DNA of 41,426 bases, taken from a virus. Taxonomy: Duplodnaviria > Heunggongvirae > Uroviricota > Caudoviricetes. Each line of letters opens with the position of its first letter. Position 1 is the stretch's first letter. The stretch lies in IMG/VR virus record IMGVR_UViG_2711768022_000004; one strand, 5' to 3'. Shown piece by piece: positions 1,612 through 41,098 of the stretch. Below the pieces are notes generated by a model. That model saw only the letters and a list, made by a program, of their open reading frames with translations, made no database searches and was not told the origin of the DNA. The position numbers were made by a program, and so were the translations under genes.

Positions 1612-2207
1612 GTAAGCGTGCAGCAAGAACCGTATTGACGGGAATGTGTTATTCAGTCGGCAGTGCTACGCGCCAGGGGAGCAGTTCGCCGACCCGGTTT
1701 ATCGGCCAGTCGGCTATGACGTCAAGGACATAGCGGAGGTAGCTTTCTGGCTCCACTCCGTTCAGTTTGCACGTCCCGATCAGGCTGTACAGCAGCGCTC
1801 CCCGCTCTCCTCCATGATCCGAACCGAAGAACAGGTAGTTTTTGCGGCCCAGACTGACCATCCGCAACGCATTTTCAGCGATGTTATTGTCCGCCTCAGC
1901 CCAGCCATCATCTGCATAGTACGTCAGCGCCGGCCACTGGTTCAGGGCATATGCGAACGCTTTCGCCAGTTCTGAGTGTCGCGACAGGGTTTTCATCTTT
2001 TCACGCAGCCAGCTTTCCAGGGATTTCAGCAGCGGTTTCGTTTTCAACTGACGTTCGGCAAGGCGCTGTTTCAGCAGGAAGATGTCGTCAGAAGAGATGT
2101 CGTTCATAAGCCCGTATTTTACCGGGCTTATTCTGTGACAACCAGGATAAAGAGATTTACAGCATGGTCAGGGAGGTCAGCAGCCGCTTAGGCTGTCTAT
2201 AGCGCGG
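1612..2207 (-). mobile_element. IS66-family insertion sequence, right-hand portion (terminal repeat plus 3' end of transposase gene)
   Basis: GTAAGCG at 1612-1618 resembles IS66-family terminal repeats (from memory); transposase C-terminal fragment 1649-2107; frame open upstream to about 2167. Confidence 0.55.
1649..2107 (-). pseudogene. IS66-family transposase (TnpC/orf3) C-terminal fragment; about 1 kb of 5' coding sequence absent
   Basis: 152-aa translation contains IAENALRMVSLGRKNYLFFGSDHGGERGALLYSLIGTCKLNGVEPESYLRYVLDVIADWPINRVGELLPW, matching the conserved C-terminus of IS66 transposases; no N-terminal part in the window. Confidence 0.75.
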
Positions 2208-2325: not shown

Positions 2326-3063
2326 TCATTCACTCTCTTTCAAACCAGTTTTAACTGTTTGTGGTTTTGGGTAAGGCTGGACTTTGAATAGCTTTGTGTT
2401 AAGGCGTTTTCTGGCTCTCTTGTCCAGAAACCGGATGTAACGAAACTGACGGAATTTATGAACACTGGCTCTGTCGATATTAGCCCGCAGATGTTCACCT
2501 CGCTGTCCTCCTCGTTTGATTGCATTCTTGCAAATCTCGTGATACCACTCGCCATCAAGTTCATAGAATGTTGTTTCATGACTGCCTACATAATCAAAAT
2601 TGCTTGCCTGGTACACGACACCAAGACAGCCACAACGCTCATCTGCAAACGACTGAACCCACTGCACCTGCGGATAAAGTTGTCTGATTAGTTTGAGCGC
2701 GTAACTGATTGCCCTTGATTCGGAGTTTCTCGGCATACAGTCATGCAGCCATAACCGGTTAAGCTCCATATATTCGCGGTTCTGCGTGCCAGTTACGACG
2801 CGTGCACCATTGTTTGGATTAAGGGCATAACCCCATTGCATTACGCCAACCAGCTCCCGTTCTGAAAATATGCCCAGATGAAGGTAGGAATTATTTACGA
2901 AACGATGGCTGTAATGTTTATTGACGACGACCAGCCGGGCCAGCCAGCAACTTATTGTCTCAACCCGTAACTCACGGGAGCCATAACCGACGATATTGTC
3001 GTTATAGTGAATAAGTTCAGGCGTGCTGATGATACGGGATGTAACTTGCTTTCTGTTCCCCAC
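2326..3063 (-). CDS. mom: Mom-like DNA modification protein (start uncertain; GTG at 3063 assumed, frame open to 3258)
   Basis: Immediately downstream of and overlapping a Com-like zinc-finger ORF at the prophage right end, as in Mu; about 245 aa if started at GTG 3061-3063. Confidence 0.6.
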
Positions 3064-3217
3064 GACAGGATTTCCTTGTGTATGTGGGGTGCTCTGTGGC
3101 GCTCTGAGATGTGATTTGATTGAGGGTTTTACAGCGCGGACATTTAACTTCCAGATAACTGAAGCTGGCTCGTGCCAGTAGCTTGTTACAATGTCGGCAC
3201 CGTATGTTTCGATACAT
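3017..3217 (-). CDS. com: Com-like zinc-finger translational activator of mom
   Basis: [35 protein letters not shown] has the C-x2-C...C-x2-C pattern and resembles Mu Com (IRCKNCNKLL...RCPRCK); AGGAGG Shine-Dalgarno upstream of ATG 3215-3217. Confidence 0.7.
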
Positions 3218-3260
3218 GGCCGCATAACCTCCTGCTTTGTTGTTGATATCTTTATCACTC

Positions 3261-4551: not shown

Positions 4552-6606
4552 TTACGCGTTATTCACTTCCACCACGATACTGTCAATCAGTACCGGGTAA
4601 GTCGCATTTTTAGTGATATCGGTCACGCGCAACTTGTCTGCCGTAAACGTGCCGACCGGAGACTGCGACAGCATGAATGGTGTCCCGTCCTTACCATCAA
4701 TGACCGGCGTCACCTCAATACTGTTGTTACCGGCAAAACGGAAGCCCAGCGTATGCCATTCGTTATTAAATGCGCCGAATGACCCCAGCTTCGTGTTCTG
4801 CGCCGTGTTTCCTTTGTGATACATCACGTTAAGGTCTGTGGCATCGCTCTGTACGTAGAACGATGCCAGCAGGTTATGACCGGCATTTCCTTCCAGAGTA
4901 ACCCCTTGCGGCAGGGCAGAAACCGGCCAGTACAGCGCCAGTGCGTACTGATTAGCCGTAAGCGCGCCATCGAGTTTAAAACGACAACTGACAAGACCAC
5001 CTTTACCCAGCAGGTCCGCACCATTACCAGCATCATGCTCAAGGTACCAGGGGGCTCTTCCTGTTTCCTTGGTCAGTTTCATTGCCTTACCCCCGCTGGC
5101 TCCGGCATCATCCACGATTTGAGCCTTGCCACCTCCGGCAGCCCAACCCTGTGGTGTCAACCGTCCTTCAGACTCAGATGCCCGGTAAGCAAATAGCGTA
5201 CTCATCGTCGTGGTGTCTGCGGGTGGCGTGGACGGTTTTGATGGTGTATCAGGTGACGGCTTCTCATCCGGTGGTGTCACGGTCTGCCCACGCATCAGTT
5301 CAGCCGTGCGCCCTGCATGGAGCATAATAGCTGAGGCCAGACGGTCTGAAATGACGCCCCTGCGTGCCCATGAGCTGAAATGGCTGTCACGCTGTGTCGA
5401 AACAAAACTGCCCTGGGTTCGGGATGCTGCACCGTAATACCCGACAGCCACAATATCCGGGTCTTCCGCCGGAGCATTCGTTGGCGTGCTCTGTCCATTC
5501 TCATCCGTCAGGAACGGTACAAAGAAAATTTTCTGTGCTTCCTTGCCTTTGTAGCCACCGTATACTGCCTCATATTTATCGGTGCCAGCGTTTTTCCAGT
5601 AATACGTGGTATCACCGCAAATCCACGGCACCGTGGTGGCATTTCCACTCACGCACTGCGCAGCAAGCGGAGCCAGGTCAGTTCTGAACTGCTGAACCAT
5701 GGCCGTGAATAAACTATTATGCTGCTGGCTTCCTGAGGCAAGGTCTGCCTCTCCCTGCATCCAGACCACAGCCAGAAGTTTGTTTTTCGGGTTTTTCGCC
5801 AGCGCGACTTTGGTGCGGCTTACCAGGTCCTGATACAGAGGTTTACCGGCCCCCCAGCGTGAAGAATCAGCGGAAGCACCGCTGGCCTCACTGAATGAGC
5901 CGTCGGCTCCAGTGGTGAATGCTGACCCGCCACGACAACAGGGCACCAGAAGTATCCCGGCATTCTGTGGGATATAGGGAAGCAGTTTTTTGGCAATATG
6001 CAACCCCTGACCGACAGTCCCGTACTGGCCTTTTGCCAGATCAGCTTTCGGGTGGTTTATCCCGCTCATATCCTGAACATCATGCAGGCAGTGGTCTGCC
6101 GGAATGATGTCGTTGTATGTACACGACGTACCGTTGGGCGTTACCGTACTGCGGCGTGCCAGTTGCTTAATGCGTGGGTCCGGGCGGTCAAACGAATCCG
6201 GTAACGGCAGCCCCTCGCCGTAGGCCATGCCATTTGACTGACCCGCGAGAATGACAACAAAGTAATATTCCGGCTCTGAACTGCTGCCATTCGTGCTACC
6301 GGAAGGCCCGGCGTTATCCGGTGCATTCCAGTCGGAGGGCGTGAGCGTTCCGGCCACGTCAGATGTGATTGGAATGATGCCAGTCACGCCTGAACTGGTG
6401 ATTTCTGCACTGGGATTACCGGATACCGGCATTACCCATAATGGCTCTTTCGTGCTGAAGCGGATCACGCAGTCTGCGAAGGTGATCCCCCCTTTATTAC
6501 CCGAAGGGCGGAAAGGGCTTTCAATAAATGCCACCGTGCCACCGGCAACCTTGACTGAAAACTCTCCGGGCATGGCGGAGAGCATTTTCCACTTGGAGTC
6601 TGACAT
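4552..6606 (-). CDS. SASA/SGNH-type carbohydrate esterase-like protein (sialate O-acetylesterase-like), prophage cargo
   Basis: 684 aa; VVILAGQSNGMAYGEG resembles the GQSNM motif of sialate O-acetylesterase-type domains; no obvious signal peptide; sits between invertase and com-mom. Confidence 0.55.
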   Translation of the reverse strand: MSDSKWKMLSAMPGEFSVKVAGGTVAFIESPFRPSGNKGGITFADCVIRFSTKEPLWVMPVSGNPSAEITSSGVTGIIPITSDVAGTLTPSDWNAPDNAGPSGSTNGSSSEPEYYFVVILAGQSNGMAYGEGLPLPDSFDRPDPRIKQLARRSTVTPNGTSCTYNDIIPADHCLHDVQDMSGINHPKADLAKGQYGTVGQGLHIAKKLLPYIPQNAGILLVPCCRGGSAFTTGADGSFSEASGASADSSRWGAGKPLYQDLVSRTKVALAKNPKNKLLAVVWMQGEADLASGSQQHNSLFTAMVQQFRTDLAPLAAQCVSGNATTVPWICGDTTYYWKNAGTDKYEAVYGGYKGKEAQKIFFVPFLTDENGQSTPTNAPAEDPDIVAVGYYGAASRTQGSFVSTQRDSHFSSWARRGVISDRLASAIMLHAGRTAELMRGQTVTPPDEKPSPDTPSKPSTPPADTTTMSTLFAYRASESEGRLTPQGWAAGGGKAQIVDDAGASGGKAMKLTKETGRAPWYLEHDAGNGADLLGKGGLVSCRFKLDGALTANQYALALYWPVSALPQGVTLEGNAGHNLLASFYVQSDATDLNVMYHKGNTAQNTKLGSFGAFNNEWHTLGFRFAGNNSIEVTPVIDGKDGTPFMLSQSPVGTFTADKLRVTDITKNATYPVLIDSIVVEVNNA

Positions 6607-6682: not shown

Positions 6683-6711
6683 AAAAAAGCGTCACGGTAC
6701 TTTTGGTGACG
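6683..6711 (-). terminator. rho-independent terminator overlapping the invertase stop codon
   Basis: On the minus strand, stem CGTCAC / GTGACG with 10-nt loop followed by CTTTTTT; invertase stop codon lies inside the stem. Confidence 0.5.
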
Positions 6712-7258
6712 GAGCTGGTGAGGCAGGAAAATAACGATAAAGGGTGGAAAGGCCAATATCAAATATCAGTGCGATTTGTTTACGGGACTCGCCATTAGCC
6801 AGCAAACGGGCGATTTGCTCCCGCTCTTTCTCTGTCAGTTTCTGAGGTCTGCCGCCATGACGCCCCTGAGCACGGGCAGCAGCAAGACCCGCGCGTGTAC
6901 GTTCAATAATGAGTTCCCGCTCCATTTCCGCCAGCGCGCCCATTATATGGAAAAAGAAACGTCCCATGGGAGTGGATGTATCAATATTGTCCGTAATGCT
7001 GCGGAAGTTAACGCCGCGTTGCCGGAGTTCTTCTGTTAAAAGGACAAGGTGCTGCATACTGCGTCCAAGGCGATCCAGTTTCCAGACCAGCAGGGTATCC
7101 CCTGGCCGGAGTCGCTTTAATGCGCGTTTAAGTCCGGGACGCTCCCTTGTCTTACCGCTTATTCTGTCTTCGAAAAACAGCTCACATCCTGCACATTCCA
7201 GCGCATTTCTTTGTAGCGCCGTATTCTGGTCATTTGTTGACACCCTGATATACCCAAT
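6692..7258 (-). CDS. gin: serine DNA invertase (Gin/Pin/Cin/Hin family), 5' end runs into the assembly gap
   Basis: Translation IGYIRVSTNDQNTALQRNAL...GDTLLVWKLDRLGRSMQHL...PMGRFFFHIMGALAEMERELIIERT is near-identical in pattern to Gin; frame continues upstream of the listed GTG start into the N-run. Confidence 0.85.
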   Translation of the reverse strand: MGYIRVSTNDQNTALQRNALECAGCELFFEDRISGKTRERPGLKRALKRLRPGDTLLVWKLDRLGRSMQHLVLLTEELRQRGVNFRSITDNIDTSTPMGRFFFHIMGALAEMERELIIERTRAGLAAARAQGRHGGRPQKLTEKEREQIARLLANGESRKQIALIFDIGLSTLYRYFPASPAPSPKVP

Positions 7259-33913: not shown

Positions 33914-34446
33914 TACGCCACCTCCGCAGATATCCCGGCAGGCGCTGCTGTCCGGTCAACAATCAGGTAGCGCAGAACATGTTCAGTGATATTCCAGCCG
34001 CTTAAACCGCAGATAATGACGCCCAGGCGTATGTCGATATACGCCATCACAAACTGGGGCACGCCTTCTTTCATGGCCTGCTCATCAACTTCAGCCACCA
34101 CATAAACGGTTTCACAGGTCAGAACGCCCTGAGCAAATTCCCACGCCATCGACGGAATATCATGCCCCTCAATCCATGGCAGGGATTTTCTGAAGCCGCA
34201 CCACTGAACATCATCAGCCGCAGATTCCTGGCTGCATTTGCGACGAACCGGCTGCACCGGGCGGGGACGCGGAATATCATAAAAACCGTTACATTCCGTC
34301 AGCACGCCTGCATCAACCGCATCACGCAGAAAATAAACCATGGAGGATGGCGGCATATTCATTTTTTCAGCCAGTACACCGCAGGTCAGGCGGCCATAAA
34401 TACACAGCCAGTTTTTAACCCCTTCAAGCACTTTTGCATCAATCAT
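33913..34446 (-). CDS. hypothetical early-region protein
   Basis: 177-aa ORF. Confidence 0.45.
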   Translation of the reverse strand: MIDAKVLEGVKNWLCIYGRLTCGVLAEKMNMPPSSMVYFLRDAVDAGVLTECNGFYDIPRPRPVQPVRRKCSQESAADDVQWCGFRKSLPWIEGHDIPSMAWEFAQGVLTCETVYVVAEVDEQAMKEGVPQFVMAYIDIRLGVIICGLSGWNITEHVLRYLIVDRTAAPAGISAEVA

Positions 34447-34591
34447 GATTTATTTCCCCACCACATTATTAATGACGATATAAACGTATTTCATATTTCT
34501 TAACCCTTATTTTCTGTTTTCAGGCGCAAGCAGTCCCCTGACGCGAGCGCCATAATTAAAATGAAGTGATATTTAATTGATTAATGCGGTG

Positions 34592-35122
34592 TTATTTATT
34601 CAGTCCGGCGTCCTGTTCAAAAGGCTCGACATAAAAACTTTCAGCGCCTTTATTCACCTTGATACCGGCAATGCCTTTCACAGCATCCGGCTCCGCCAGG
34701 ACGGCTTCCTTGTTCACTTCCTCTTTCGTGCGGATGAAACGCTCAAGCCCCATACGGCGCAGCATTTCAATCACACCTTCCACATCACGGCTGACGCTGC
34801 ATGATGGCGTTCCCAGCCGCCATGACACCGTTCCGGTGGTCAGATTGGCTGTTTTGGTTTTGCCGCCGTTCGTCAGCTCATCACGGTTGGTTTTGCACCA
34901 GTCCTGAATCCCTTTAAAAAGCACTTTGATTTGCTTTTTAAGATTTTCAATCTGCGGCGTATAACGGGCGGTGATTTCTGCCACTTCGTCATTCATCGCC
35001 GTTTCCAGGCGCAGCGCCTCTCGCTGAATATCTCCCAGGGTGCGGATATCACGGCTGACTTCTTCCCGGGTCTGCGGTGCCGCCTCGGCTGCGGCCTTTA
35101 ATTTTGTAACGCGTTTAGCCAT
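34592..35122 (-). CDS. gam: Gam-like host-nuclease inhibitor (DNA end-binding protein)
   Basis: 176 aa; LRLETAMNDEVAEITARY...NRDELTNGGKTKTANLTTGTVSWR...RFIRTKEEVNKEA...FEQDAG closely resembles Mu Gam. Confidence 0.8.
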   Translation of the reverse strand: MAKRVTKLKAAAEAAPQTREEVSRDIRTLGDIQREALRLETAMNDEVAEITARYTPQIENLKKQIKVLFKGIQDWCKTNRDELTNGGKTKTANLTTGTVSWRLGTPSCSVSRDVEGVIEMLRRMGLERFIRTKEEVNKEAVLAEPDAVKGIAGIKVNKGAESFYVEPFEQDAGLNK

Positions 35123-35133
35123 TTTGTTTTTCC

Positions 35134-35427
35134 TTATTGCAGTGTGCCTGATGCTTTATGCACGCGGTGGCGTTTAATGATGGCATCCGCTCCAAAAGAC
35201 TGTGCAGATGCCTGAAATTCCGCTGAGAGAAACTGAATAATTGCAGGACTGTGATACTGGAGAATACTTGCATAAACGTCACAGAGTGACGTCGGCCTGT
35301 TATCCGTATCACGTTCTGTTTTCACATCCACTCCAATCTTTTCATGCACTTCAACACAGTCATTGCCTGCCAACTTTTCGTCATGCGAAACATGATTAAA
35401 TTCAAAAATAACGCGTACTTTGCTCAT
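35134..35427 (-). CDS. hypothetical small protein, paralogue B of a tandem pair
   Basis: From ATG 35425-35427: MSKVRVIFEFNHVSHDEK...; shares MSKV-R-IFE N-terminus with upstream gene. Confidence 0.45.
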   Translation of the reverse strand: MSKVRVIFEFNHVSHDEKLAGNDCVEVHEKIGVDVKTERDTDNRPTSLCDVYASILQYHSPAIIQFLSAEFQASAQSFGADAIIKRHRVHKASGTLQ

Positions 35428-35431
35428 GGAA

Positions 35432-35704
35432 TTACCCCTGTTGATTAAATTCATTACCGTTAATAACCCCGGAAGCCATGCCTCTGTCTTTCATGAATGC
35501 ACTGGCTTTCATTGCCACAAACTCTGCGAAGTTTCTGCTTTCTGCCAGCATAACCACCCCAAAAATCATGGCGGGTCCATTATCTTTCTTCTTTATTCCG
35601 GTTGAACGTATATCCAGACTTACCCCTCTGTGCGTGCTGCCATCAGAGTTTTTGCAGATAACATCTTCCTTGTATTCGAAAATAATGCGTACGACTTTAC
35701 TCAT
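35432..35704 (-). CDS. hypothetical small protein, paralogue A of a tandem pair
   Basis: MSKVVRIIFEYKEDVICKNSDGSTHRG...; AT-rich. Confidence 0.45.
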   Translation of the reverse strand: MSKVVRIIFEYKEDVICKNSDGSTHRGVSLDIRSTGIKKKDNGPAMIFGVVMLAESRNFAEFVAMKASAFMKDRGMASGVINGNEFNQQG

Positions 35705-35982
35705 CCTCTGGTCCTCGTTCTGTTTGGATAACTGACCCGGCGTCTAACCTCACGGCAGAACCGAATCATGGCATTAAAGGCTTCTTCCTCCGTCACCGCT
35801 TCCGGTATCCCCGGAACCAGTAACTGCTCCTGTTCATCACGTCCATGACGCGCCATAACCTCAATCACATGCCGTACCGTGGCAGGCTTTCCGGCAACTA
35901 TCGGCAATGCACCTTCCGGCAGGACGTAACCAAACTCAATAAGACCACTCGACCACGCCCATGCAATGAGATTTTTTTTCAC
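35701..35982 (-). CDS. hypothetical early-region protein
   Basis: 93-aa ORF. Confidence 0.4.
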   Translation of the reverse strand: MKKNLIAWAWSSGLIEFGYVLPEGALPIVAGKPATVRHVIEVMARHGRDEQEQLLVPGIPEAVTEEEAFNAMIRFCREVRRRVSYPNRTRTRG

Positions 35983-35983
35983 C

Positions 35984-36250
35984 TCACACCTCCCAGTAAA
36001 CCGTGCAGCCGCTGATGCGGGTGGCCTTCACACGGCGGCGCAGGCCGTTGGTCTGTATGGTGATTTCAATTTCACCGGTTCCCTGCACGTTGCCTACCGG
36101 CGGCGTGGTTTTCAGTGCAAAACGTTGCGGATAGCGCTTACTGCGTTCCAGTACCGCACCGGCAAGTTCGGTCAGACGGCGCGCGCTGTTCAGGGAGTCG
36201 AATAAATTCATTTTGTTACCGCAGGATTGCATATTCATATAACACCTCAT
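35984..36250 (-). CDS. hypothetical early-region protein
   Basis: 88-aa ORF; start uncertain. Confidence 0.4.
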   Translation of the reverse strand: MRCYMNMQSCGNKMNLFDSLNSARRLTELAGAVLERSKRYPQRFALKTTPPVGNVQGTGEIEITIQTNGLRRRVKATRISGCTVYWEV

Positions 36251-36478
36251 TTAGCTGACTTGTTTCGCACCAACAGAACGGCATATTCCGCTGTAAACTT
36301 CTGTCGCACCTTCGCGATCAAGTCCGGCAGATATCACCATTCGTGTGCGGTCATTAAATTCAAAAAGTAAATCGCCACATTCTTTATTTTCGGCCAGTGA
36401 AATCACCTTCACGTTATCGAAATTAACCAGGTAAAAGCGTCCGTAAATATCAGGAATATTAAATACCGCCATAATCAC
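36251..36478 (-). CDS. hypothetical early-region protein
   Basis: 75-aa ORF overlapping the B-like gene end by 4 nt. Confidence 0.4.
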   Translation of the reverse strand: MIMAVFNIPDIYGRFYLVNFDNVKVISLAENKECGDLLFEFNDRTRMVISAGLDREGATEVYSGICRSVGAKQVS

Positions 36479-37416
36479 ACCTGTGAGAGTAATTCAGGGT
36501 TGGTATAAACCTCTTTAAAGGCCGCATTAATATGTTTTTCTGTCAGCGCCGCGCCTTCACCGCTGGCGGTGAGCCACGCCTGGTTAAGCGTATGTGTCAG
36601 AACGCGTAACGCTCCCGGCTTTTCAGCGATAGCCTGCATGACGGCCAGCTCGGCCTCACCACTGATCCCCCACGCCATGGCAATGGCCAGCACATCCGCC
36701 TTTTTGGCCTTGCGAAGTTGTTTTGTACGGGCAAGACGGCTGAACAGGCGCGATAAATCATCAAAGGCGCGGCGTCCACCTTTAAACAATCCGCGCGGGT
36801 TACCAATAAGCACCATCCCGATCCCCGTGGCGTCCTGAATTGCCCGGAGTTGCTCCAGACCGTCAATACCAAGATGATCCGCCTCATCCACAATCACCAG
36901 TCCACGCGTTCCCATCAGGCGACGGCGGATGGCGCGGGATAATGCCCCTTTGTTCGCGCGGGTGTAATCAATCCCCAGCGCATCGGCCAGCTCCAGCAGA
37001 CACTCCGTGACGCTGGAGTGCGCGGGTGACAGGGTGATCATCCAGGTGTTTGGTTGCTCCTGGCAGTAATTACGGGCAGTGGCCGTTTTACCCACACCCG
37101 GTACGCCCACAATAACGTTAATACAGCCCATCAGGCGAACCGCCTGAAACAGTGCGCGCAGCTCCTGGACTGTCTGAGTTTCCACAAACTGCGGCGGTTC
37201 CGGCAGTGCGCTTTGTTTATTCCAGTTCTCATACCAGGAGCGCAGGGAAGCAGCCACAGCAGCGTTATCGCCTTTATATTTTCCCTTACGGAAAGCCGAT
37301 AATGTGCCGTCGGAAATTCCCGCCTCTCTGGCGATGGCATACTGCGTCAGTACGCCGCCATCAATAAGTTCATCAATGGTCTTGATTACATCGTTAATAT
37401 CGGTCATATTATTCAC
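36475..37416 (-). CDS. MuB-like AAA+ ATPase (transposition target-DNA activator)
   Basis: 313 aa; Walker A GVPGVGKT; N-terminal HTH-like region; directly downstream of transposase. Confidence 0.8.
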   Translation of the reverse strand: MNNMTDINDVIKTIDELIDGGVLTQYAIAREAGISDGTLSAFRKGKYKGDNAAVAASLRSWYENWNKQSALPEPPQFVETQTVQELRALFQAVRLMGCINVIVGVPGVGKTATARNYCQEQPNTWMITLSPAHSSVTECLLELADALGIDYTRANKGALSRAIRRRLMGTRGLVIVDEADHLGIDGLEQLRAIQDATGIGMVLIGNPRGLFKGGRRAFDDLSRLFSRLARTKQLRKAKKADVLAIAMAWGISGEAELAVMQAIAEKPGALRVLTHTLNQAWLTASGEGAALTEKHINAAFKEVYTNPELLSQV

Positions 37417-37489: not shown

Positions 37490-39577
37490 TCAGGCCAGCG
37501 GATCACTTTCTTTTAATTTCGCTTCGAGCAGTTGCAATCCCCGCTGGAAATTACGCTCGTATTCTTCATCAGGTTCATCGTCAGCGACCGGTTGCTGAAC
37601 GGTCACCGTATTACCCACAGGGCGGTATATGTTTTCCAGCCAGGGCTCCTGCGGCTTGTGCTCCAGCACGTTGACAACCTCATCCTCGGCATCACGGATT
37701 TTTTCCTCTGCGCGTTTACGCATGCCTTTAAGGCGCTGCTGCTGTTTGTAGTATTCCGCGCTGACAGGGAAGGCTTCGCGTTTATTGCCGTCCCATACCG
37801 CCTCGCAAATCACGCTGCCATCCGGGCGGCGCACGGTAATTCGTTCGGCATCATGAATGTCATAGCTGATAAGTACCTTACGGCCATGCTCGTCACGCAG
37901 CTCGGGCGCGTAGTAAATATTATTCAGCCAGCGTATTTCACAGCGTCTTACAGGGCGCTCCACCATCGGCCGGAACATATCCCGCAGTTCAACATCGGAC
38001 AGCCATTCAATTTCCGTGTCCTCTTCCGCCAGGCGTTTTTTTCTGAACTCCGCCGGGCTGTAATGTTTACCGTTCGGCTTCATGGGTAATTCATCGTGCG
38101 GCCGGTTGTTGTACCACTCAACACCGTCACGAATGGCATCAATCAGTTCAGACCAGGACGGTAAATCACGCATCGCTGACTGCTGCCGGGCGTTCAGCCG
38201 TTTGCCCTGTTGCAGGGCACTGAATGCCGAGCGTAAATCGCGGTTGGTTTTACGTAACGTCTCGCGATCTGCTCCTTTCCCGAAATAGGTGCGGTATTTA
38301 CGGGCTATGCGCATCGGTAATGTGCGGTTAAGCCGTTCGATAATGCCCCGTCCCTGCGGATTACCGGCAATCCCTGTCGGGTGATTAATCCCCAGTCGTG
38401 GCAGTATCCCCACAATCTCCTTATCCAGGACGTCGGCGGTTTCCCCGGAGCCATTATCCGAGTAATACAGAAACGGTTTGCCATGATGGCGAATACCGTG
38501 CTGTATGGCACCGGCTACGGCGAAAACATTTTCAGCCAGGTCAAGGCTCCAGCCCACCACAAAGCGCGTGCCACCGTCGATAACAAAGGTCACTTCCGGT
38601 GCGAATGGCCGCCCGTGAACCGGGTGCGCGCATTTCAGCTTCATGCCGTGACCGTCACCAATCCAGACATAATTCACCGGCATTCTGGACCAGTCGCGGC
38701 GCGTGAATCCCTCAAGCTGACGGTATTCACTGCCAGTTACCCGGCCTTTTTGTTTCACCACTTCCGGCAGTTTCTTCATTGCGCGGCGAATGGTGTCATA
38801 AGAGGGCATGATATCGAGCATATAAGGCTCATCAGCGTGCCGGTGCTGCCATTCAGCAACAAAATCCTCGTAAGCCTCGGTCATTGGTCGGCCGTTTGAC
38901 TGGCGATACTGCGCCAGAAATTCGGGCAGCCAGTTAATATCTTCGGCTTTTATTTCCTGGCGTTTACCCGGTGCCAGTAAAAGCAGGCGTTCAGCGGCGT
39001 TCTGTGCCTTGTTAAAGGCCGCAATCCAGCGTTTCAGCGTGATTTCACTCAACGCGCGGCTGTTTCCCTTTTTGGCGTTCGCCGTCTCAACCATTGCCAC
39101 AATGCGCTCGTCCAGTTGTGATCGTGCCAGGCTGTTAACGAGGAACCGGATAGCTTTAGCGCAGCTGAAACCGGGTTGTTGCGTGAATTTCAGCACCTCA
39201 CTGACGATCGCAATGCGTGCGTCTGCCACCTGGCGCTGGTTTTCAGTCAGGGCATTGAGGCGTTCGACCATCAGTTGTGGTGATCCGCGATATGCCTCCA
39301 CCGCATCAACCACGGCAGACGAGCGTCTGGCCTTTGTCACCACCGGAGCCGGTGATTCATCGGCTTTTTGCGTCATCAGTTGCAGGGCATAACGTTCGCG
39401 TAATGCCTGCTGTGTCACTTCAGGTAAACAGTCAATGCTGTATTCAAAACCTTTAGCGCCTTTCTTGCGGCGTCTGCTGGTTTCGCTGGTTGCATACTTC
39501 CTGATTGAATAGCGAACGCCTTGCTCCGTTCCCGGCATCCCCGGTAATCCAACCAGTTCTTTAACTGAAGCAAACAT
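37490..39577 (-). CDS. MuA-like DDE transposase
   Basis: 695 aa; between ner-like and B-like genes; N-terminus MFASVKELVGLPGMPGTEQGVRYSIRKYA parallels MuA N-terminal DNA-binding domain. Confidence 0.8.
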   Translation of the reverse strand: MFASVKELVGLPGMPGTEQGVRYSIRKYATSETSRRRKKGAKGFEYSIDCLPEVTQQALRERYALQLMTQKADESPAPVVTKARRSSAVVDAVEAYRGSPQLMVERLNALTENQRQVADARIAIVSEVLKFTQQPGFSCAKAIRFLVNSLARSQLDERIVAMVETANAKKGNSRALSEITLKRWIAAFNKAQNAAERLLLLAPGKRQEIKAEDINWLPEFLAQYRQSNGRPMTEAYEDFVAEWQHRHADEPYMLDIMPSYDTIRRAMKKLPEVVKQKGRVTGSEYRQLEGFTRRDWSRMPVNYVWIGDGHGMKLKCAHPVHGRPFAPEVTFVIDGGTRFVVGWSLDLAENVFAVAGAIQHGIRHHGKPFLYYSDNGSGETADVLDKEIVGILPRLGINHPTGIAGNPQGRGIIERLNRTLPMRIARKYRTYFGKGADRETLRKTNRDLRSAFSALQQGKRLNARQQSAMRDLPSWSELIDAIRDGVEWYNNRPHDELPMKPNGKHYSPAEFRKKRLAEEDTEIEWLSDVELRDMFRPMVERPVRRCEIRWLNNIYYAPELRDEHGRKVLISYDIHDAERITVRRPDGSVICEAVWDGNKREAFPVSAEYYKQQQRLKGMRKRAEEKIRDAEDEVVNVLEHKPQEPWLENIYRPVGNTVTVQQPVADDEPDEEYERNFQRGLQLLEAKLKESDPLA

Positions 39578-40610: not shown

Positions 40611-40777
40611 CCACAGTATCAAATGAGTTGCCGATTTTATAATAAATGACTAATTATTGCACAATCGGTATCAAATAGACCTTATCCGCACATCTAGCCA
40701 TCACCTGTTTTATTTCAGTATCTTACAGGTGATTTCACCTCCTTTCACTAAACCCCTTGTCGGTATCAAATGATTCA
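40611..40777. repeat. prophage left-end transposase-binding repeats (attL-like)
   Basis: Reverse complements of ATTTGATAC(C/T) at 40615-40624, 40667-40676, 40762-40771; terminus reads TGAATCATTTGATACC inward from 40777. Confidence 0.55.
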
Positions 40778-41098
40778 CCTGGTTATATGTCGCCAGTCGA
40801 TACCTTCCAGCAGCATCGCCAGCTGCGCCTGTGTAAGGAACACTTTGCCATCACGGGCTGACGGCCAGGCGAAGCGCCCACGCTCCAGCCGTTTGGTCAG
40901 GAGGCACAGTCCGTCACTGGTGGACCACAGCAGTTTAACCTGACTGCCGCTGCGGCCCCGGAAAATGAAAACATGGCCGGACATGGGATCGTCTTTCAGC
41001 GCCGTCTGTACTTTCGCAGCCAGGCCGTTGAAGCCATTTCTCATATCGGTGATACCGGCAACCAGCCAAATTTTGATCCCGGAAGGTAACGGGATCAT
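40775..41098 (-). CDS. IS66-family accessory protein TnpB (orf2)
   Basis: MIPLPSGIKIWLVAGITDMRNGFNGLAAKVQ...GSQVKLLWSTSDGLCLLTKRLERGRFAWP matches the conserved IS66 orf2 product. Confidence 0.85.
   Translation of the reverse strand: MIPLPSGIKIWLVAGITDMRNGFNGLAAKVQTALKDDPMSGHVFIFRGRSGSQVKLLWSTSDGLCLLTKRLERGRFAWPSARDGKVFLTQAQLAMLLEGIDWRHITR

What the first reader, a model, noticed from the sequence alone, without database searches (positions are those of the whole stretch)
35134..35704. Tandem pair of divergent small paralogues in the early region
Two adjacent AT-rich genes encode 90-97-aa proteins with the same N-terminal signature (MSKV-R-IFE-F/Y) but divergent remainder. In Mu-like phages the region between B and gam holds host-takeover and anti-defence genes; duplicated, fast-diverging small genes there are candidates for such functions.
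Basis: inference. Interest (0 to 1): 0.45.

Follow-up and report, generated by a model that had tools for sequence, protein, structure and literature searches.

The report
Duplicated small early gene, Mu-like prophage
Two neighbouring small genes in the early operon of an E. coli Mu-like prophage are real, diverged copies of one gene that related transposable phages carry once in the same place, just before gam; what the gene does is unknown, and it matches no characterised protein.

Summary
Window 35134-35704 (- strand) contains exactly two CDSs: ORF-A (35432-35704, 90 aa) and ORF-B (35134-35427, 97 aa). Both are low-GC (43% against 53.5% for the window) and start MSKVVRIIFEY / MSKV-RVIFEF. 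Homology extends beyond the N-terminus: profile-profile comparison gives E=1.9e-8, 95% probability, over 64 columns.

The family is tiny, about a dozen 50%-identity clusters among 1.84 billion representatives. In every context examined it lies in Mu-like transposable phages, in one slot: after kil (and g93 where present) and immediately before gam or DUF3164. Five divergent relatives carry one copy. Only the E. coli lineage has the tandem pair, where it co-occurs 1:1 with gam in 232 of 5,426 complete genomes. ORF-B resembles the single-copy genes; ORF-A is the divergent copy.

Both are under purifying but relaxed selection (dN/dS 0.34 and 0.44; gam 0.10, B 0.05). Their alleles are mosaic between otherwise near-identical prophages.

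AlphaFold2 (ORF-B, pLDDT 84) predicts a long beta-hairpin plus two helices, with no informative structural or sequence match.

The function is untested. My best guess is a non-enzymatic accessory binding protein of the host-takeover or anti-defence type. This is an ordinary uncharacterised phage accessory family, of modest interest.

The parts
35432..35704 (-). ORF-A: 90 aa, pI 9.25, GC 42.9%. This is the divergent paralogue (phrog_4107, unknown function).
   Evidence: ORF and sequence. PGAP CDS WP_000049428.1. phrog_4107 at E=1.7e-54. dN/dS 0.34. 15-21% identity to all other family groups.
35134..35427 (-). ORF-B: 97 aa, pI 6.27, GC 43.5%. This paralogue is closest to the single-copy genes of other Mu-like phages (phrog_2230, unknown function).
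   Evidence: ORF and sequence. PGAP CDS WP_000049310.1. phrog_2230 at E=1.8e-38. 28% identity to the nearest single-copy group (out1; 21% to the other two). AF2 pLDDT 84 with strands 4-21 and 24-39 and helices 48-58 and 60-77. dN/dS 0.44.
35672..35704 (-). 5' patch of ORF-A (first 11 codons, MSKVVRIIFEY), nearly identical at DNA level to the 5' end of ORF-B. It encodes the first beta-strand.
   Evidence: DNA alignment. L044 has the ORF-A leader fused to an ORF-B allele, consistent with recombination through this patch.
35398..35427 (-). 5' patch of ORF-B (first 10 codons, MSKVRVIFEF), the counterpart of the ORF-A patch.
   Evidence: The family-wide V-I-F-x-F motif gives the only invariant or nearly invariant columns of the superfamily alignment.
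35701..35982 (-). Upstream gene g93 (phrog_1518, which carries the untested family label 'host nuclease inhibitor'). Its TGA stop overlaps the ORF-A ATG (ATGA), which suggests translational coupling.
   Evidence: The overlap was read directly from the sequence.
34592..35122 (-). Downstream gene gam (PF07352), starting 11 nt after the ORF-B stop. The family always sits immediately upstream of gam or of DUF3164.
   Evidence: Pfam E=5.5e-42. Contexts.
35984..36250 (-). Kil-like gene (phrog_2679). It forms the upstream boundary of the conserved slot in relatives that lack g93.

Best explanation
SHOWN. ORF-A and ORF-B are two real genes in the early (Pe-type, semi-essential) operon of an E. coli Mu-like prophage, tightly packed with their neighbours. 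They are tandem paralogues of a small protein family that, wherever its context was examined, lies in Mu-like transposable phages. The ancestral state is one copy in a fixed slot: after kil (and g93 where present) and directly before gam or DUF3164. The E. coli lineage carries two copies. ORF-B keeps the ancestral sequence type, and ORF-A has diverged strongly.

PREDICTED. Each encodes a soluble protein of about 10 kDa with a long amphipathic beta-hairpin packed on two helices. What is conserved across the family is hydrophobic core. The hairpin tip, the loop and the C-terminal tail vary. No conserved polar residue pattern suggests catalysis.

INFERRED. The proteins act stoichiometrically by binding another macromolecule, probably as dimers formed through the exposed sheet edge. 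They provide a dispensable, accessory early function. Low GC, allele mosaicism and relaxed constraint place them, together with g75, in the variable accessory part of the early operon. The most likely class of target is therefore a host factor (host takeover, or counter-defence alongside kil and gam). On this reading, the duplication let the two copies diverge towards different targets or target variants.
For: Real genes. PGAP annotates both CDSs. dN/dS is 0.34 and 0.44, with a constrained core (0.10-0.30) and near-neutral loops and tails (0.7-0.95). The pair is kept in 232 of 5,426 complete E. coli genomes at 275 places, matching gam (232 genomes, 274 places).

Operon packing. g93 and ORF-A overlap by ATGA, ORF-A and ORF-B are 4 nt apart, and ORF-B and gam are 11 nt apart. 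Promoter- and terminator-like sites in the stretch scanned (34400-36600) were no more frequent than in shuffles, and none lies on the - strand within the pair.

Paralogy. hhalign gives E=1.9e-8, 95.4% probability, over 64 columns. The full-length alignment is colinear.

Narrow family. An exhaustive profile search found 19 hits at E<1e-3 among 1.84e9 representatives, several of them spurious repeat proteins.

Fixed slot, single copy elsewhere. This holds in L003, L004-6, L008 (Citrobacter braakii), L046 and L047.

ORF-B is the ancestral-like copy: 28% identity to the nearest single-copy group, against 15-18% for ORF-A to any of them.

No catalytic signature. Only I7 and F8 are invariant or nearly so across the superfamily.

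Accessory character. GC is 43% against 53.5%. Alleles are 57-100% (ORF-A) and 59-100% (ORF-B) identical and freely re-assorted, while B, kil and gam stay mostly 93-100%. Derivatives missing or breaking one copy were seen in individual genomes or contigs (L044, L045, P0030, frameshifted P0052/P0061/P0063).

The Mu SE region is dispensable, contributes to host killing, and is largely uncharacterised (PMC3325207, PMC3820752).
Against: No functional evidence of any kind exists. There is no similarity to any characterised inhibitor, anti-defence protein or defence component.

dN/dS gives no credible evidence of positive selection. The one regional value above 1 (ORF-B codons 1-11, 1.51) rests on very few substitutions. 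Raised synonymous divergence shows that much of the variability comes from recombination between old alleles.

Strict adjacency to gam or DUF3164, and universal retention with gam, fit a phage-internal role equally well.

Dimerisation and the binding mode are inferred from a monomer model only. The ORF-A model was poor (pLDDT 53.6).

Mu itself has no clear homologue; gp7/E6 is only a marginal match.
Confidence: 0.45

Rival explanations
1. Phage-internal auxiliary factor. The protein works with the product of the next gene (Gam or DUF3164), or with the transposition and replication machinery, for example in protecting or processing Mu DNA ends. It would not act on a host defence or takeover target.
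For: The family always lies immediately upstream of gam or DUF3164, and in L003 its CDS overlaps the called gam start by 26 nt. It co-occurs 1:1 with gam in E. coli genomes. The neighbour g93 belongs to a PHROG labelled 'host nuclease inhibitor'.
Against: The downstream partner switches between two different Pfam families (Gam PF07352 and DUF3164) while the small gene stays. A specific partner should co-evolve, yet gam is 93-100% conserved beside ORF-B alleles only 59-60% identical. Mu has Gam but no clear homologue. Constraint is relaxed compared with gam and B.
Confidence: 0.22
2. Small dimeric nucleic-acid-binding regulator of early or middle gene expression, or of Mu DNA. It would use the long beta-hairpin as a DNA- or RNA-binding arm.
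For: ORF-A is basic (pI 9.25). A long beta-hairpin is predicted. The gene lies in an operon that also encodes regulators.
Confidence: 0.1
3. Both copies do the same job. The duplication is a neutral or dosage event, or a relic of recombination between two phages that each carried one allele, with no functional divergence.
For: The near-identical 30-nt 5' patch allows unequal recombination. A one-copy derivative (L044) and an in-frame A::B hybrid (P0030) exist.
Against: The copies share only 17% identity and differ in charge. Both are kept in about 97% of the loci. Each has its own constrained core.
Confidence: 0.15
4. The N-terminal similarity is chance or reflects only a shared translation-initiation context, or the ORFs are not functional genes.
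For: Outside the first 11 residues the pairwise signal is weak: 228 of 5000 shuffles reached the observed score.
Against: Profile-profile comparison gives E=1.9e-8 over 64 columns. Bridging single-copy relatives align along their whole length. dN/dS is below 1 and the genes are retained across the lineage.
Confidence: 0.03

Closest known systems
PHROG families phrog_2230 and phrog_4107 (both 'unknown function')
   Same: ORF-B matches phrog_2230 at E=1.8e-38 and ORF-A matches phrog_4107 at E=1.7e-54, each along the full length.
   Different: PHROGs keeps them as two unrelated families with no function. Here they are linked as one superfamily with a fixed genomic slot.
Phage Mu gp7 (E6, 87 aa, phrog_10252), a hypothetical protein between kil and gam
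   Same: Similar length. The N-terminus, MAKVIIEIK, is of the same strand type. It lies in the same B-to-gam interval. Three weak colinear matches were found: phrog_2230 at E=0.009, hhalign at E=0.0018 over 71 columns, and 14 of 2000 shuffles reaching its profile score.
   Different: hhalign probability is only 15%. It was not found by tblastn or by the exhaustive profile search. In Mu, gp8 and gp9 separate it from gam. Its function is also unknown.
Characterised Mu semi-essential-region genes kil and gam
   Same: Same operon and expression class. They are small accessory early proteins that act on host functions. The SE region is dispensable and contributes to host killing (PMC3325207).
   Different: There is no sequence relationship. 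The window has its own Kil-like gene (phrog_2679) and its own Gam (PF07352).
Two-layer alpha/beta dimerisation domains (M20 peptidase dimerisation domain, ACT domain)
   Different: The scores are in the range of generic fold analogy, sequence identity is 4-15%, and the topology is simpler (beta-beta-alpha-alpha). This is not evidence of homology or of shared function.
Small early-operon host-manipulating proteins of Pseudomonas Mu-like phages (for example Tip, Aqs1). Recalled from memory, not tested here.
   Same: The same kind of gene: short ORFs downstream of the transposition genes that bind host proteins.
   Different: No homology is claimed.

Membership tests
phrog_2230 / phrog_4107 superfamily (small early protein of Mu-like phages, unknown function) | Full-length profile match | tested here: met
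   E=1.8e-38 for ORF-B and 1.7e-54 for ORF-A. The two families are linked by hhalign at E=1.9e-8.
phrog_2230 / phrog_4107 superfamily (small early protein of Mu-like phages, unknown function) | Position in a transposable-phage early operon, after kil or g93 and directly before gam or DUF3164 | tested here: met
   Seen in the window and in L003, L004-6, L007, L008, L046 and L047.
Mu gp7/E6 family (phrog_10252) | Significant sequence or profile similarity | tested here: inconclusive
   gp7 matches phrog_2230 at E=0.009. hhalign gives E=0.11-0.26 with single profiles and E=0.0018 at 15% probability with A9 against A6. 14 of 2000 shuffles reached its score.
Gam / host-nuclease inhibitor (PF07352) | Match to the Gam profile | tested here: not met
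   No Pfam hit at E<0.1 for ORF-A or ORF-B. The adjacent 176-aa gene is the Gam.
Kil (septation inhibitor) families | Match to Kil PHROGs or Pfam | tested here: not met
   Only the 88-aa ORF at 35984-36250 matches Kil PHROGs.
Known anti-restriction or anti-defence proteins with Pfam models (Ocr, ArdA, KlcA/ArdB, various Acr) | Sequence similarity to a described family | tested here: not met
   No Pfam or NCBIfam hit at E<0.1-1. No PDB sequence hit at E<10. Dedicated anti-defence HMM sets (dbAPIS, AntiDefenseFinder) were not available.
Known anti-restriction or anti-defence proteins with Pfam models (Ocr, ArdA, KlcA/ArdB, various Acr) | DNA-mimic character (strongly acidic surface) | tested here: not met
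   pI is 9.25 for ORF-A and 6.27 for ORF-B.
Known anti-restriction or anti-defence proteins with Pfam models (Ocr, ArdA, KlcA/ArdB, various Acr) | Demonstrated inhibition of a defence system | not testable with these tools
   Requires experiments.
Defence-system components (PADLOC) | Match to a defence-protein model | tested here: not met
   No PADLOC hit at E<1.
Type II toxin-antitoxin pair | Two small adjacent genes from different families, matching toxin and antitoxin models | tested here: not met
   The two genes are paralogues of each other. Neither matches a TA model in Pfam or NCBIfam. Relatives carry a single copy.

The most novel reading that the evidence does not exclude
The family is a new class of small beta-hairpin/two-helix inhibitor proteins specific to Mu-like phages. 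It neutralises a host defence or DNA-repair factor early in infection or induction. The E. coli lineage duplicated it, and ORF-A neofunctionalised, so that the two copies cover two targets or target variants. The mosaic allele pool would then reflect diversity in the host targets.
Probability: 0.2. Interest if true: 0.55.

Novelty: new member of a known kind. Interest (0 to 1): 0.3.

Why it matters
The semi-essential early region of Mu-like phages has been called 'largely uncharacterised' for decades. This analysis merges two orphan PHROGs into one slot-specific family and shows which copy is ancestral. It gives a confident fold model and shows that the genes are conserved yet variable accessory genes. 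That makes a compact, testable pair of candidates for host-directed early functions in a prophage present in about 4% of complete E. coli genomes, including Stx-phage-carrying strains. Without a phenotype, it remains one of many uncharacterised small phage accessory families.

Tried and rejected
Searches of the two proteins that returned nothing:
- Pfam, NCBIfam and PADLOC.
- A PDB sequence search with the family profile, no hit at E<10.
- tblastn against 50,697 phage records, which found only two Stx-phage records carrying an inserted Mu-like phage.

Structure:
- AF2 of ORF-A with a shallow alignment was unusable (pLDDT 53.6).
- Foldseek against BFVD and PDB gave nothing below E=0.06. The weak PDB hits to pore-forming-toxin stems only reflect the long hairpin.
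- AFDB50 was not available.

Other attempts:
P0073 gave no viral locus.
- The link to Mu gp7/E6 stayed inconclusive after four tests.
- Rfam and promoter/terminator scans of the region showed nothing above chance.
- Literature searches by WP accession, DUF3164, Mu SE region and anti-defence terms found no characterisation of these proteins.

Ideas considered and rejected: a toxin-antitoxin pair, a DNA mimic, chance N-terminal similarity, and decaying pseudogenes.

Full report
**What is there**

The window is an E. coli Mu-like prophage read on the - strand. The gene order is:
- transposase A, 37490-39577
- B, 36475-37416
- a 75-aa gene, g75, 36251-36478 (phrog_3375)
- a Kil-like gene, 35984-36250 (phrog_2679)
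- a 93-aa gene, g93, 35701-35982 (phrog_1518)
- ORF-A, 35432-35704 (90 aa)
- ORF-B, 35134-35427 (97 aa)
- Gam, 34592-35122 (PF07352, E=5.5e-42)
- gp11-like and gp12-like genes

The finding's coordinates delimit the two CDSs exactly. NCBI's pipeline annotates the same two CDSs as hypothetical proteins in a 100% identical locus. The genes are tightly packed. The g93 stop overlaps the ORF-A start (ATGA). ORF-A and ORF-B are 4 nt apart, and ORF-B and gam are 11 nt apart. Promoter- and terminator-like sites in the stretch scanned were no more frequent than in shuffles, and none lies on the - strand within the pair. No Rfam family matches. Both ORFs are 43% GC, against 53.5% for the window and 52-55% for B, kil, g93 and gam. 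g75 shares the low GC.

**Is the similarity real?**

The pairwise signal is modest. BLASTP gives E=6e-4, 22% identity over 76 aa. In the local-alignment test, 1 of 5000 shuffles reached the observed score. Without the N-terminal 10-11 residues, 228 of 5000 did. At DNA level about 27 of the first 30 aligned bases are identical, and identity then falls to background.

Profiles settle the question. hhalign of the two E. coli families gives E=1.1e-5. An exhaustive profile search recovered distant single-copy relatives. Adding them to the ORF-B side gives E=1.9e-8, 95.4% probability, over 64 columns. A 23-sequence alignment of both families plus the bridging sequences is colinear end to end. The two genes are paralogues, and the homology is not confined to the N-terminus.

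**How wide is the family, and where does it sit?**

The word-indexed searches returned only E. coli proteins. An HMMER scan of 1.84 billion cluster representatives found 19 proteins at E<1e-3. Several of those are spurious repeat proteins, which leaves roughly a dozen real clusters of 87-100 aa. The phage database holds the genes only in two Stx-phage records that carry an inserted Mu-like phage.

Every context recovered is a transposable-phage early operon with the gene in one slot:
- L003: kil, g93-like, X, gam, with X overlapping the called gam start.
- L046: kil, X, gam.
- L008 (Citrobacter braakii ATCC 51113): B, g75, kil, g93, X, DUF3164.
- L004-6: kil-like, X, DUF3164.
- L047: kil, X.

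All five carry a single copy.

Only the E. coli lineage has two copies (window; L007; 35 of 37 IMG/VR loci). ORF-B is 28% identical to the nearest single-copy group. ORF-A is 15-21% identical to every other group, ORF-B included. ORF-B is therefore the ancestral-type copy and ORF-A the divergent one. ORF-A arose either by in-situ duplication followed by rapid change, or by tandem capture of a distant allele. The data do not distinguish these.

**Population behaviour**

In complete E. coli genomes the pair occurs in 232 of 5,426 genomes at 275 places. This lineage's gam occurs in 232 genomes at 274 places. The pair is more diverged, mostly 90-95% nucleotide identity against 95-99% for gam.

Across 37 IMG/VR loci, B, kil and gam are mostly 93-100% identical in protein to the window. 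ORF-A alleles fall at about 100, 94, 91, 87-89, 80 and 57%. ORF-B alleles fall at about 100, 97, 94, 82 and 60%. These alleles occur in many combinations.

dN/dS over all allele pairs:

| Gene | dN/dS |
|---|---|
| ORF-A | 0.34 |
| ORF-B | 0.44 |
| gam | 0.10 |
| B | 0.05 |
| gp11 | 0.17 |

Within the two ORFs, the first strand and the helices of ORF-A (0.10-0.11) and the helices and hairpin of ORF-B (0.30-0.35) are constrained. Loops and tails are nearly neutral (0.7-0.95). The one value above 1, ORF-B codons 1-11 at 1.51, rests on very few substitutions (pS 0.026).

Synonymous divergence at the pair exceeds that of flanking genes in the same prophage. In L023, for example, dS is 0.35 for ORF-A against 0.015-0.02 for g93 and B. 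Much of the variability is therefore exchange of old alleles, not only fast protein evolution.

Occasional derivatives lack one copy:
- In L044, g93 and ORF-A are missing and the ORF-A leader is fused to an ORF-B allele, consistent with recombination through the shared 5' patch.
- P0030 is an in-frame hybrid, A(1-49)::B(80-97).
- Frameshifted forms also exist.

Together these data show real, selected but dispensable accessory genes.

**The protein**

There is no hit in Pfam, NCBIfam, PADLOC or PDB sequences. PHROGs lists both families as 'unknown function'. AF2 on ORF-A with a shallow alignment failed (pLDDT 53.6). With the 23-sequence superfamily alignment, ORF-B folds confidently (pLDDT 84, pTM 0.68). 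The model has strands 4-21 and 24-39 forming a long hairpin, then helices 48-58 and 60-77 and a disordered tail. The low-confidence ORF-A model shows the same hairpin-then-helix order.

Strand 2 is amphipathic. The residues conserved across the family are hydrophobic, and only I7 and F8 are invariant or nearly so. There is no catalytic signature.

**Relation to Mu itself**

Mu has five genes between B and gam: kil, gp6, gp7, gp8 and gp9. None is found by tblastn with ORF-A or ORF-B. Mu gp7 (E6, 87 aa, MAKVIIEIK...) gives three weak but colinear signals:
- phrog_2230 at E=0.009.
- 14 of 2000 shuffles reach its score against the superfamily HMM.
- hhalign of a gp7 alignment against the superfamily gives E=0.0018 at 15% probability over 71 columns.

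I treat gp7 as a possible remote relative, not an established one. The literature describes the SE region as 14 ORFs of mostly unknown function. It is dispensable, and its deletion restored cell viability after infection with a replication-defective (MuBam) phage (PMC3325207, PMC3820752).

**Interpretation**

These points are shown:
- The two genes are real, tightly packed paralogues in the early operon.
- The family is narrow and specific to Mu-like phages.
- The slot before gam or DUF3164 is fixed.
- Relatives carry a single copy.
- Selection is relaxed but purifying.
- Alleles are mosaic.
- A beta-beta-alpha-alpha fold is confidently predicted, with no informative homologue.

These points are inferred. 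The proteins are non-enzymatic binders, probably dimeric. They provide an accessory early function, most likely directed at a host factor (takeover or counter-defence). The duplication allowed functional divergence.

The main rival is a phage-internal role linked to Gam or DUF3164, or to transposition. The invariant adjacency favours it. Three observations weigh against it: the downstream partner changes family while the small gene stays; gam stays conserved beside highly diverged ORF-B alleles; and Mu manages without a clear homologue.

A DNA-binding regulator, a functionally redundant duplication, and chance similarity or non-genes are less likely, for the reasons given under rival explanations.

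**Verdict**

The functional suggestion (host takeover or anti-defence) remains a reasonable but untested positional inference. This is a new, small, slot-specific member of the class of uncharacterised accessory early genes of transposable phages. It deserves modest interest unless a phenotype is found.

Noticed in passing
window 1649-2107 (-) and 40775-41098 (-): An IS66-family transposase C-terminal fragment and an IS66 Orf2/TnpB gene flank the prophage on either side. This suggests the Mu-like prophage inserted into an IS66-type element. A 'prophage tail fibre N-terminal' ORF at 423-1595 lies beyond it, consistent with the Stx-phage records annotated as carrying an inserted Mu-like phage.
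   Followed up: partly
window 2326-3258 (-): The Mom-family protein is 310 aa, and the Pfam Mom domain covers only residues 96-298. That leaves an unexplained N-terminal extension of about 95 aa.
   Followed up: no
window 4552-6606 (-): A 684-aa ORF with a SASA (sialate O-acetylesterase-type) domain and DUF6645 lies next to the Gin-like invertase (6692-7243). It may be an esterase-bearing tail fibre or receptor-modifying protein.
   Followed up: no
window 36251-36478 (-): g75 (phrog_3375, unknown function) shares the low GC (41.7%) and hypervariability (75-99% aa identity) of ORF-A and ORF-B, among prophages whose B and kil are mostly 97-100% identical. It is a second variable accessory gene in the same operon.
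   Followed up: partly
window 35701-35982 (-): g93 belongs to phrog_1518, which is labelled 'host nuclease inhibitor' (untested). In about 9 of 37 related loci only about 24% of it is matched, so it appears to be replaced by another gene there. In L007 a 139-aa ORF sits upstream of kil instead.
   Followed up: partly
L044 3402-3794; protein P0030: Two natural rearrangements occur between the paralogues. In L044, g93 and ORF-A are missing and the ORF-A upstream leader is fused to an ORF-B allele. P0030 is an in-frame ORF-A(1-49)::ORF-B(80-97) hybrid joined at a shared 'FG'.
   Followed up: partly
L008 4303-4941; L004 5275-5913: In Citrobacter braakii and in a metagenomic Mu-like phage, gam is replaced by a DUF3164 gene at the same position while the upstream small gene is kept. 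DUF3164 may be a positional analogue of Gam.
   Followed up: no
window 35984-36250 (-): The Kil homologue is the second gene after B here. In Mu, kil is the first gene after B. The local Pfam copy did not detect it, although precomputed annotations list PF26843 Kil_protein for its relatives.
   Followed up: no
E. coli genomes: Some genomes carry up to 4 copies of this prophage type, for example 3 places in strain JE86-ST05. One copy lies on a plasmid.
   Followed up: no
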